Positions 39,501 through 42,500 of a DNA stretch of 64,000 bases are shown here, piece by piece. The DNA lies in NCBI GenBank assembly GCA_964270895.1, contig OZ185437.1; one strand, 5' to 3'. The stretch is from Podarcis filfolensis (taxonomy: Eukaryota). The position numbers are program-made. The stretch's first letter is position 1, and every line of letters begins with the position of its first letter.

Positions 39501-42500
39501 TCTGTTCATCGGCTGGTGTGGTTGTGGGCCACCCAGATGATACAGCTGTGAAATAGGCAGCAGTTCCCTTGCGGGGGCCTTCCTCATCTGTGTTGCCGGG
39601 CTCACCTACCCCTCCTGGGCATGCTGAGCCAATAGGAGCAGCTGTGTGTGTGTCAATTGGGTGCCTGAGGATGACAGTTCAAGAGGAGGAGGAGGTTGAG
39701 TCCAGCTTCTCCATCAGGGATAGAGACATGAGAAGAGAGTTAAATTGGGAGTTAGATTCCCAACTGCCCTGCTGCTGTCCACTTGGTGAGGGTCAGATGC
39801 AGCCAAATTAGGGGAGGGACCGTTGCTAAATACCAGGTACAGTGGTACCTCGGGTTAAGAACTTAATTCGTTCTGGAGGTCCATTCTTAACCTGAAACTG
39901 TTCTTAACCTGAAGCACCACTTTAGCTAATGGGGCCTCCCACTGCTGCTGCGCCGCAGGAGCACGATTTCTGTTCTCATCCTGAAGCAAAGTTCTTGACC
40001 CGAGGTACTATTTCTGGGTTAGTGGAGTCTGTAACCTGAAGCATCTGTAACCTGAAGCGTCTGTAACCCGAGGTACCACTGTACTCCTGAATTGGAAGCG
40101 GGTGGGTAGAAGCAGAGCCCCTGATGGCTCTGGAGCATTCAGTCGGACAGGATAATGCTGATGTTCGCAAGTGCGGTCAGGCCACGTTCTGGAGATAACT
40201 TGTTGGTGACATCAGCACTCTCAGCTTTTGGGCTAGGAAGACACAGGAATCCAAGCATTAAGTGCTGTGACTTAGGGAAACAGCAACACATTGCAGTGGA
40301 GGCAACTCCCTGCCAGAGACCAGCCTGTCCTCACATGATCTTAGGATTGCCCAAGTGCCCCAGATGTCAACACACTTTTTGCTGATTGACCACTGGGCTC
40401 TCCCGGTCCCTGAGCTGTTGCCTGGCAGCAGCCCGTTCTCTCAGGCTGCAGCAGACAAAGGGCTGGGAAGTAGGACTACCCCACGTGCTCTGCTGACAGC
40501 CCAACTCTGTTAGGCTCCCAGTCGCCTTGAACTGTTTCCATTCAAGCTGGTCATTATAAGAAACATGAACCTTTAAGAGCTGGTGCCTGATTCTATTTGT
40601 TTTCCTTTTCCCTCCTCTTCCTCTTGTCCTTTTCTGCCATGTCATTTAGATTTTAAGCAGGAAGACAGGGACTGCCGTCTTTGTTACTGATCTTATGTAA
40701 GCAGGTCTGGGGCCCTTTTTGGTTGAAGAGCAGAGTAAAAATGCTTTTAACCAAAGAAATAAAACTCAGGCTGGTCTCTGGCAGGGAGTTGCCTCTGCTG
40801 CAATGTGTTGCTGTTTCCATAAGTCACAGCACTTAATGCTTGGATTCCTGTGTCTTCCTAGCCCAAAAGCTGAGAGTGCTGATGTCATTGACAATGGTGT
40901 GTCTCGTGCAAAGTTGAGAATAGGAACTGCACCAAGATTATGGACTAGCTGGCCACTTTCTCACCCCCTTGTCCTGCATTTGAATAGCAATTCAATAAAT
41001 GTTGGGTGCTCATATAGCGCACTGATTTTAATTCTTAGATCAGGGAGGAACAGATTAAAAATCATCCGTAAAAGTGCCCCATACAACAGAAAACCAACCA
41101 AAACACATTAATTCCTCACCTACAGCTGTCTTAACTCTTCCCACCCCCAATACCACTCCATCATGCCCAAGTTAAAATGTTAATATTTGCTTTTGAAAGA
41201 TGCACAGGCTCATCCTTAGACAAGGCTCCAAAGACACCGAGTTCAATAGATGGAACATCATATTGTCAGCTTACATCAGCTTTGTCTTTAGACTGGGATG
41301 ATTATATGGTATCCAAAAATCATTTTTGTGTTTGTCCTTTTAAACTGTTGATACTCTTTACATTTAATCCTGTTTATGCCCTGTAGCTGTGACTGAATCA
41401 GTTTATACCTTGTAGGTTCTATCAGCAGCAGCATTAAAAACATGTGGGTTTTGTTTTGTTTTTGTTTTGTTTTTTACAAAGCAGTCAGGCGGAATATTTT
41501 CTTTCTTTCATAACATCTCAGTGGTTTATCACATGTCACAAGCCAACTTATATCCAAAGTTCAATGGTTCAAATCAAAATGCATAGGTCTTTAGAAACCA
41601 GAGTTACAAGCCAACAAGAAGCAGATCTAGCCTATTAATAGACTTCCTGGTGTGTCAAACCAAGACAATCTCAAGAAATACACCAAAAGAGAGCGCAGCA
41701 AAATAAAACCCTTATCTGGTACCACCTTTTATGGTGTCGTCTAAGTTTTCCTTGTATCATCTCTTAATGGGCAATCTGATTTCAATGGCGATATAATACA
41801 GAAATTGTTCTTCTCTTAAAGGTAAAGGGACCCCTGACAATTAAGTCCAGTCGCGAATGACTCTGGGGTTGTGGCGCTCATCTCGCTTTACAAGCCGAGG
41901 GAGCCAGCGTTTGTCTGCTTCAGCAGACAGTTTTTCCGGGTCATGTGGCCAGCATGACTAAGCCGCTTCTGGCGAAACCAGAGCAGCACATGGAAATGCC
42001 GTTTGCCTTCCCGCCGGAGCGGTACCTATTTATCTACTTGCACTGGCATGCTTTCAAACTGCTAGGTGGGCAGGAGCTGGGACCAAGCAATGGGAGCGGG
42101 GATTTGAACCGCCGACCTTTCGATTGGCAAGCCCAAGCAGCACAGTAGTTTAACCCACAGTGCCACCCATGTCCAGGAATACCCCTACTAGGATGAAAAA
42201 GCTAACGGGAAAAGCCAGAGAATCCATAATTTATTTGCTGAACACCCCCAATCCACCCCATTTTAGATATTGAAATCTATTCCTCTTTTCCAGTTCAATG
42301 GGCTATTCCACCCAAGCAGTAATAAGGATAAATTATTTCTAGGAAATCTAAATAAACCCAAACTCTTAATGACTCATGCTGGCTGGGGTTCATGGATATG
42401 GGAGTCCAACATCATCTGGAAGACCATAGGTTCCCTACTTCTGGTGTAACATATTCTGACTTTTCTAAAGATTGTATATCTGGATATATTTGTACTGTAT

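What the first reader, a model, noticed from the sequence alone, without database searches (positions are those of the whole stretch)
40200..40894. 128-bp intronic inverted repeat with G-U-biased mismatches
Seen: the arms pair at 122/128 positions with no indels around a 439-nt loop, and I do not recognise them as any SINE or MITE in this window. No TSD is visible. Five of the six mismatches are G-U pairs if the plus strand (the host pre-mRNA) is transcribed; only one is G-A. Established: CpG decay gives TpG or CpA about equally, yet both decayed CpG sites show TpG in both arms. Inference: a long dsRNA stem that could act as an ADAR substrate, splicing loop-out or small-RNA source, possibly under selection. 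The counts are small.
Basis: partly seen in the sequence, partly recalled or inferred. Interest (0 to 1): 0.65.

Follow-up and report, generated by a model that had tools for sequence, protein, structure and literature searches.

The report
Old solitary inverted repeat, lizard intergenic DNA
A real 128-base inverted repeat lies in non-coding lizard DNA about 17 kb upstream of a sperm gene, and nothing found here suggests it is more than a neutrally decaying relic.

Summary
The repeat is real: arms 40200-40327 and 40767-40894 pair at 122 of 128 positions with no indels. Five mismatches are G-U on the plus strand and one is G-A.

"Intronic" is not supported. The only gene found is SPMIP3, plus strand, coding exons 57576-61708, so the repeat ends 16.7 kb upstream of its ATG. 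The best SPMIP3 match is Zootoca vivipara, so this is a lacertid lizard, not human.

The 439-nt loop is composite. A 213-bp A-tailed insert (40553-40765), bracketed by an 11-nt direct repeat, cuts into the inner end of the right arm. The original unit was therefore about 470 bp.

An unnamed homologous copy (P0005) shares the left flank, left arm and part of the insert. In that comparison the arm is no better conserved than flank or loop.

The G-U bias is weak. Opposite-sense CpG decays leave no mismatch, and the two strands fold almost equally well (-389.2 and -387.4 kcal/mol).

There is no target-site duplication and no second copy in the window. Genome-wide copy number could not be checked, so a one-off inverted duplication and a low-copy long-TIR transposon both remain open.

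Verdict: ordinary.

The parts
40200..40327 (.). Left arm of the inverted repeat (128 nt)
   Evidence: the repeat finder I1 and base-by-base check. No CpG left in the arm. Present with the same left flank in the homologous copy P0005.
40328..40541 (.). Original spacer (214 nt) of the repeat before the later insertion
   Evidence: It lies between the left arm and the left copy of the 11-nt direct repeat (D4). No match elsewhere in the window. Covered by P0005.
40542..40552 (+). Left copy of an 11-nt direct repeat, read as the target-site duplication of the insert. It is a duplicate of the inner end of the right arm.
   Evidence: D4 (10 of 11 identical to 40766-40776) and I7 (complementary to 40318-40327); 42 of 3000 shuffles give such a repeat at this junction. 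The test was post hoc.
40553..40765 (+). 213-bp insert with an A-rich 3' end, read as a 5'-truncated L2-type LINE/SINE tail
   Evidence: Bracketed by the 11-nt repeat. An L2-type 3' motif recalled from memory matches once in the window, at 40647-40672, with 0.00 expected; the pattern was shaped after seeing the loop. No repeat library was available to confirm the family.
40767..40894 (.). Right arm of the inverted repeat (128 nt). Its first bases overlap the right copy of the 11-nt repeat, 40766-40776.
   Evidence: No CpG left. Not covered by any protein-database hit.

Best explanation
This is a genuine, old inverted repeat, single in this window, in apparently intergenic DNA 16.7 kb upstream of SPMIP3 in a lacertid lizard. 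It began as a unit of about 470 bp: two 128-bp arms around a 214-nt spacer. A 213-bp A-tailed retroposon then landed 10 nt inside the inner end of the right arm and duplicated 11 nt of target, which stretched the 'loop' to 439 nt. Both events predate the split from the genome that yielded P0005. Since then arms, spacer and flank have drifted at similar rates. The two double G-U mismatches are the visible half of ordinary CpG decay.

For its origin I favour a one-off local inverted duplication, by replication template switch or fold-back repair copying the left arm onto the other strand about 214 nt away. The reasons are that there is no target-site duplication and no sign of other copies.

Shown here: the repeat, its mismatches, the gene context, the homologous copy and the direct repeat around the insert. 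Inferred: the retroposon identity, the order of events, neutrality and the mode of origin.
For: - Repeat and mismatches.
- Gene context: Pfam DUF5530 at 59959-60144 (E = 8.2e-11). SPMIP3 of Zootoca vivipara, Rhineura floridana, Elgaria multicarinata webbii and Pogona vitticeps found with that one exon ORF. All four coding exons at 57576-61708 on the plus strand by tblastn. An acceptor AG at 57566-67 and a consensus donor at 57401|57402 suggest a short 5'UTR intron (by eye).
- No other exon among 361 + 252 ORFs.
- Composite loop: D4, I7; 42 of 3000 shuffles.
- Age: P0005 runs from the left flank (40155) through the left arm to 40653, inside the insert. The insert's duplicated target is the inner end of the right arm, so the right arm existed before the insert.
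- The outer 7 bp are real. P0005 implies A at the 40206 position, as in the right arm.
- Neutrality: arm 7 of 42 against flank plus loop 13 of 122 codon differences (hand counts). The window frame carries stops and a frameshift, so it is non-coding.
- Low copy number: no second copy in 64 kb. phmmer of the left-arm ORF against 1.84 billion representatives gave 2 hits, one the same locus and one a spurious tandem-repeat protein. Two word-based searches over the right arm gave 0 hits.
- No target-site duplication.
- Strand symmetry of folding. Stem alone -257.8 against -246.2 kcal/mol.
Against: - Genome-wide copy number was not measurable here, because no eukaryotic genome or repeat library was on hand. 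A low- or medium-copy transposon family cannot be excluded.
- Size (695 bp, or about 470 bp originally) and sharp-edged arms without indels are exactly MITE-like, and the window is MITE-rich.
- Template-switch events described in the passages I read are tens of bases long (PMC8794818), shorter than 128 bp. I saw no microhomology at the junctions, by eye only.
- The naive simulation puts the G-U excess at a nominal 1-6%, so a real strand bias is not excluded.
- The two arms in the window differ at 4 of 42 codons. Each differs from P0005's left arm at 7 or 8 of 42 (hand counts). Arm-to-arm gene conversion or pairing selection would also give this, though 2 window-left-arm-specific against 6 P0005-specific changes is within noise.
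- The direct repeat around the insert was noticed post hoc, and five chance-level repeats of similar quality lie in the same 901 bp.
- The protein-database negatives are weak. Only chance ORFs called on contigs can appear there.
Confidence: 0.5

Rival explanations
1. It is a non-autonomous DNA transposon with long terminal inverted repeats (a low-copy MITE or foldback-like element) that inserted before the split from the P0005 genome. Its target-site duplication is absent, atypical or lost.
For: - Length within the 50-800 bp given for MITEs, terminal inverted repeats and no coding capacity (PMC6171319 passages).
- Sharp ends on both sides of both arms.
- The window is rich in another MITE family: 23 TIR-motif hits, one copy 115 bp away at 39837-40084.
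Against: - No target-site duplication of 2-12 nt at any offset within 12 nt, although the arms are only 4.7% diverged, so a duplication made at insertion should survive.
- The termini resemble no superfamily terminus that I can recall (recall only).
- No second copy in 64 kb.
- Only the same-locus homologue in the protein searches.
Confidence: 0.35
2. It is a functional hairpin kept by selection: an ADAR substrate, a hairpin-RNA or endo-siRNA source, or a regulatory dsRNA.
For: - Very stable fold on either strand.
- Five of six mismatches are wobble pairs on one strand, nominal P = 0.009-0.057.
- The repeat has lasted since before the split from the P0005 genome.
- Lizard brain shows massive hyper-editing of repeat-derived dsRNA (PMC5625713 passages).
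Against: - No host gene or intron found.
- No Rfam family at gathering score in the window. In 39000-42000 at E up to 10, no match overlaps either arm.
- The arm is no better conserved than flank and loop.
- A retroposon was tolerated inside the right arm's inner end.
- The strand difference in stability is 1.8 of about 389 kcal/mol.
- The CpG argument is an ascertainment effect.
- Nine comparable inverted pairs lie in the same window.
Confidence: 0.05
3. The arms are two independent insertions, in opposite orientation, of a short repeat of about 128 bp.
For: The other nine long inverted pairs in the window arise this way, from multi-copy MITEs.
Against: - Both arms stop at exactly the same bases at both ends without indels.
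- The arm has no poly-A tail, no tRNA-like head and no Rfam match.
- No other copy in the window.
Confidence: 0.05
4. It is an assembly artefact, a chimeric palindromic read.
For: None specific. The window has one N gap, at 58602-58764, far from the repeat.
Against: - The arms differ at 6 positions and enclose 439 nt of unique sequence.
- The flank, left arm and loop arrangement is seen independently in P0005.
- The insert's duplicated target includes the right arm's inner end.
Confidence: 0.02

Closest known systems
Local inverted duplications made by replication template switching or fold-back repair (PMC8794818 passages read; PMC5453318 and PMC10710096 seen only as search listing and abstract starts)
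   Same: A reverse-complement copy of nearby unique sequence, which creates a perfect hairpin in one step. No target-site duplication. Present at one locus only.
   Different: The events in the passages I read are 'tens of bases' long. Here the copy is 128 bp, placed about 214 nt away. No junction microhomology was seen (by eye), and no genome lacking the copy was available to show the event.
Miniature inverted-repeat transposable elements (definition from PMC6171319 passages)
   Same: Size 50-800 bp, terminal inverted repeats and no coding capacity, in a MITE-rich neighbourhood.
   Different: No target-site duplication, no second copy in 64 kb, and arms much longer than most MITE termini.
Repeat-derived long dsRNA that ADAR hyper-edits in animals, lizard included (PMC5625713 passages)
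   Same: A long, nearly perfect intramolecular duplex formed with sequence within 2 kb.
   Different: Those substrates are defined by transcription and clustered A-to-G changes, and neither could be tested here. Most are pairs of multi-copy repeats. This one is single in the window and lies outside any gene found.
Hairpin-RNA (endo-siRNA) loci of Drosophila testis and mouse oocytes (recalled, no paper read)
   Same: A long inverted duplication that could give siRNAs, next to a sperm-expressed gene.
   Different: The two open reading frames across the arms gave no match other than the same-locus copy P0005 and one spurious tandem-repeat protein. No small-RNA data were available.

Membership tests
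MITE / non-autonomous DNA transposon | Length about 50-800 bp with terminal inverted repeats (PMC6171319) | tested here: met
   695 bp now and about 470 bp before the insert, with 128-nt arms.
MITE / non-autonomous DNA transposon | Flanking target-site duplication | tested here: not met
   No direct repeat of 2-12 nt flanks the ends at symmetric offsets. Only two asymmetric 5-mers overlapping the arms were found.
MITE / non-autonomous DNA transposon | Several copies with different flanks (default minimum 3 in MITE Tracker) | tested here: inconclusive
   One copy in the 64-kb window. The only true homologue in the protein searches shares the same flank. No eukaryotic genome or repeat library could be searched.
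MITE / non-autonomous DNA transposon | No transposase coding capacity | tested here: met
   ORFs of 55 aa or more across the element gave no Pfam family (they were members of alignments A2 and A4). One ORF of 40-54 aa in the loop gave none either (A8).
Template-switch / fold-back inverted duplication | Reverse-complement copy of adjacent unique sequence without target-site duplication | tested here: met
Template-switch / fold-back inverted duplication | Related genome that keeps the source but lacks the copy | not testable with these tools
   P0005 covers only the left flank, left arm and loop to 40653. Searches over the right arm found nothing.
Template-switch / fold-back inverted duplication | Microhomology at the switch points | tested here: inconclusive
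   None seen by eye at 40766/40767 or 40894/40895 in the sequence. No formal test was run, and a later insert sits at the inner junction.
ADAR hyper-editing substrate | Long near-perfect duplex with sequence within 2 kb | tested here: met
ADAR hyper-editing substrate | Transcribed, with clustered A-to-G differences between RNA and DNA | not testable with these tools
   No RNA data. No host gene found.
Known structured RNA or miRNA family (Rfam 15) | Match at the family's gathering score | tested here: not met
   0 matches at gathering score in the window. Nine sub-threshold matches in 39000-42000, none overlapping either arm.
SPMIP3 (Pfam DUF5530) intron | The repeat lies between exons of the gene | tested here: not met
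   All four coding exons lie at 57576-61708. A likely 5'UTR donor sits only 166 nt upstream of the ATG exon's acceptor. A far-upstream non-coding exon cannot be excluded without transcripts.

The most novel reading that the evidence does not exclude
The repeat is a single-locus hairpin-RNA gene, an endo-siRNA or innate-immunity dsRNA source, that has survived since before two lacertid lineages split. Under this reading its arms are kept alike by pairing selection or arm-to-arm gene conversion: 4 of 42 codon differences between the arms against 7-8 of 42 to the homologous left arm. It may be co-regulated with the neighbouring sperm gene SPMIP3.
Probability: 0.04. Interest if true: 0.5.

Novelty: new member of a known kind. 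Interest (0 to 1): 0.12.

Why it matters
As it stands it matters little. It is one more inverted repeat in a repeat-rich lizard genome, with no sign of function.

It does give a clean worked case of two cautions:
- Wobble-biased mismatches at CpG sites in a hairpin are partly an ascertainment effect, because opposite-sense decays stay paired and leave no mismatch.
- A large 'loop' can hide a later insertion.

If a genome-wide search showed it to be unique, and an outgroup lacked the right arm, it would be an unusually long example of hairpin birth by a single inverted duplication in a vertebrate.

Tried and rejected
- Rfam at gathering score over the whole window gave 0 matches. At E up to 10 over 39000-42000 it gave nine sub-threshold matches, none overlapping either arm.
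I then scanned ORFs one by one.
- A first guess of ten ORFs for the DUF5530 match missed. The hit was located by halving the ORF set.
- The term 'DUF5530' is in 0 papers of the library.
- Weak Pfam hits were treated as chance, given 82-126 ORFs per scan: PRIMA1, Mu-transpos_C, CPV_Polyhedrin, Metallothio_11, EGF_PEAR1L, zf-H3C2 and Pus10_N_euk, E = 0.0007-0.006.
- Protein searches over the right arm found nothing.
- P0006 is a tandem-repeat artefact, not a relative.
- Subterminal repeats and tandem repeats inside the element: nothing beyond chance-level short matches.
- The lacertid transposon literature search returned nothing useful.
I stopped that step, so the region counts are hand counts and carry no formal test.
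- I rejected transcription-coupled mutation bias as an explanation for the G-U excess, because no transcript context was found.

Full report
**Observation**

Arms 40200-40327 and 40767-40894 are 128 nt each, 122 of 128 complementary, with no indels and 439 nt between them. Self-BLAST aligns the 121-bp core at 118 of 121 with E = 1e-54.

The six mismatches are:
- 40204T:40890G
- 40205G:40889T
- 40206G:40888T
- 40275G:40819A
- 40297T:40797G
- 40298G:40796T

That is five G-U and one G-A on the plus strand.

Pairing stops sharply at both the outer and the inner ends. No target-site duplication of 2-12 nt flanks the ends at any offset within 12 nt. Neither arm, loop nor flank has another copy in the 64-kb window, even with relaxed blastn and nhmmer.

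**Context**

The window is lizard, not human.

I scanned 361 stop-to-stop ORFs of 55 aa or more, on both strands over the whole window, against Pfam. One significant family came out: DUF5530, E = 8.2e-11, at 59959-60144 on the plus strand.

That single exon ORF finds SPMIP3 of Zootoca vivipara (89% identity), Rhineura floridana, Elgaria multicarinata webbii and Pogona vitticeps.

tblastn of those four proteins places all four coding exons on the plus strand. Hit ends run slightly past the exon ends:
- about 57576-57638
- about 58043-58140
- about 59971-60141
- about 61601-61708

I searched exon by exon and did not build or search a joined coding sequence.

The repeat ends 16,682 bp upstream of the ATG. 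The ATG exon has a strong acceptor (AG at 57566-67), and a consensus donor lies at 57401|57402, so a short 5'UTR intron is likely (by eye).

A further 252 ORFs of 40-54 aa between 20 and 57.5 kb gave nothing credible. 'Intronic' and 'plus strand = host pre-mRNA' are therefore unsupported. A non-coding or far-upstream exon cannot be excluded without transcripts. From memory of human gene order (not tested), the DNA upstream of this gene is intergenic.

**Anatomy of the loop**

An 11-nt direct repeat, 10 of 11 identical, sits at 40542-40552 and 40766-40776 (D4). It brackets 213 bp (40553-40765) that end in an A-rich tail directly against the right arm.

That segment holds the only match in the window to an L2-type 3' motif that I recalled, at 40647-40672. 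The pattern was shaped after I had seen the loop, so this is a lead rather than a test.

The left copy of the 11-mer is complementary to the inner end of the left arm (I7). It is therefore a duplicate of the right arm's inner end.

In 42 of 3000 shuffles of the loop, a repeat of this quality falls at the junction. The test was post hoc.

I read this as a retroposon that landed 10 nt inside the right arm. The original unit was then two 128-bp arms around a 214-nt spacer, about 470 bp in all.

**A homologous copy**

I ran phmmer with the ORF that crosses the left flank and left arm (40125-40382) against 1.84 billion representative proteins. It gave two hits:
- P0006 is a tandem-repeat artefact.
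- P0005 is an unnamed 164-aa ORF from one 1188-bp contig.

P0005 aligns to the window from 40155 in the left flank, through the left arm, to 40653 inside the insert. The window carries stops, a frameshift and a 6-nt indel relative to it, so the region is non-coding.

Because P0005 shares the unique flank, it is an orthologous or segmentally duplicated copy, not a dispersed repeat.

Because it contains the insert, and the insert's duplicated target is the right arm's inner end, the whole repeat is older than the split between the two genomes (inference).

Hand counts from the alignments:

| Comparison | Codon differences |
|---|---|
| Flank, window vs P0005 | 1 of 15 |
| Left arm, window vs P0005 | 7 of 42 |
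| Loop, first part, window vs P0005 | 1 of 18 |
| Loop, second part, window vs P0005 | 11 of 89, plus 2 gap columns |
| Window left arm vs window right arm | 4 of 42 |
| Window right arm vs P0005 | 8 of 42 |

The arm (7 of 42) is thus no better conserved than flank plus loop (13 of 122).

P0005 agrees with the window's left arm at 40204 and 40297 (T). It agrees with the right arm at the positions pairing with 40206 (A) and 40275 (T). This shows that the outer 7 bp belong to the repeat. Whether the other genome has the right arm is unknown.

**The G-U bias**

Neither arm has a CpG left. The two double mismatches fit decay of an ancestral CpG in both arms.

When the arms decay in opposite senses, TG in one and CA in the other, they remain perfectly paired and leave no mismatch. 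Only TG/TG or CA/CA is visible, with equal chance. Two visible sites both TG/TG has probability 1/4, or 1/2 for both in the same sense.

A strand-symmetric simulation that ignores the clustering of the mismatches gives P(at least 5 of 6 G-U on either strand) = 0.009-0.057. That is about 0.05 when two thirds of changes are transitions.

| Fold | Plus strand | Minus strand |
|---|---|---|
| Whole 695 nt (kcal/mol) | -389.2 | -387.4 |
| Stem alone (kcal/mol) | -257.8 | -246.2 |

Both strands keep a 68-bp perfect Watson-Crick run. I see no signal of selection for pairing on one strand.

**Origin**

Two readings remain open.

*For a one-off local inverted duplication (template switch or fold-back repair):*
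- There is no target-site duplication, although the arms are only 4.7% diverged.
- There is no other copy in the window.
- The only true homologue found shares the same flank.

*For a long-TIR non-autonomous transposon:*
- Size and sharp arms are MITE-like by the definition in PMC6171319 (passages).
- The window is full of another MITE family with Tc1-like termini (my reading of the ends), 23 motif hits, with one copy 115 bp to the left.

*Against the duplication reading:* template-switch events in the passages I read are tens of bases long (PMC8794818).

I put the duplication at about 0.5 and the transposon at about 0.35. Copy number in the genome would settle it.

**Function**

If transcribed, the repeat would be a textbook long dsRNA. 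Lizard brain shows very large numbers of hyper-edited repeat-derived sites (PMC5625713 passages).

But nine other inverted pairs of 72-191 nt within 5 kb lie in this same window. No Rfam family matches either arm. A retroposon was tolerated in the stem's inner end. Nothing shows transcription.

The finding is real but ordinary.

Noticed in passing
window 57576-61708 (+): Complete coding region of SPMIP3 (Pfam DUF5530) in four exons, 77-100% identical per tblastn hit to the Zootoca vivipara protein. This places the window in a lacertid lizard other than Zootoca. The N gap at 58602-58764 lies in its second coding intron.
   Followed up: yes
window 39837-40084, with further copies near 1775-1946, 7111-7316, 35501-35691, 38483-38718, 50050-51206 and 52566-52796: A multi-copy MITE of about 250 bp. 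I read its termini as Tc1-like with TA flanks (recall). It gives 23 terminal-motif hits against 0.23 expected. Its copies form nine of the ten long inverted pairs in the window.
   Followed up: partly
window 39833-39939 (+): Sub-threshold Rfam match to mir-322 (23.3 bits, gathering score 62, E = 0.16) on the hairpin-like end of the neighbouring MITE. Most likely chance or MITE palindromy.
   Followed up: no
window 2493-4263 (-): Two long ORFs (246 and 351 aa) that look to me like LINE-1 ORF1 and the end of ORF2 (recall). Neither gave a Pfam family at E up to 0.01.
   Followed up: partly
window 15367-15741 (+), 12663-12941 (-), 45157-45435 (-): ORFs whose translations resemble tails of LINE or SINE-derived 'hypothetical proteins' common in reptile annotations (recall). 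No Pfam family.
   Followed up: no
P0005 (unnamed, one 1188-bp contig): A gene caller predicted a 164-aa 'protein' across the homologous flank, arm and loop in another data set. In the window the same frame carries stops and a frameshift, so it is a spurious ORF. If that contig came from RNA it would imply transcription of the locus. I did not pursue its source.
   Followed up: partly
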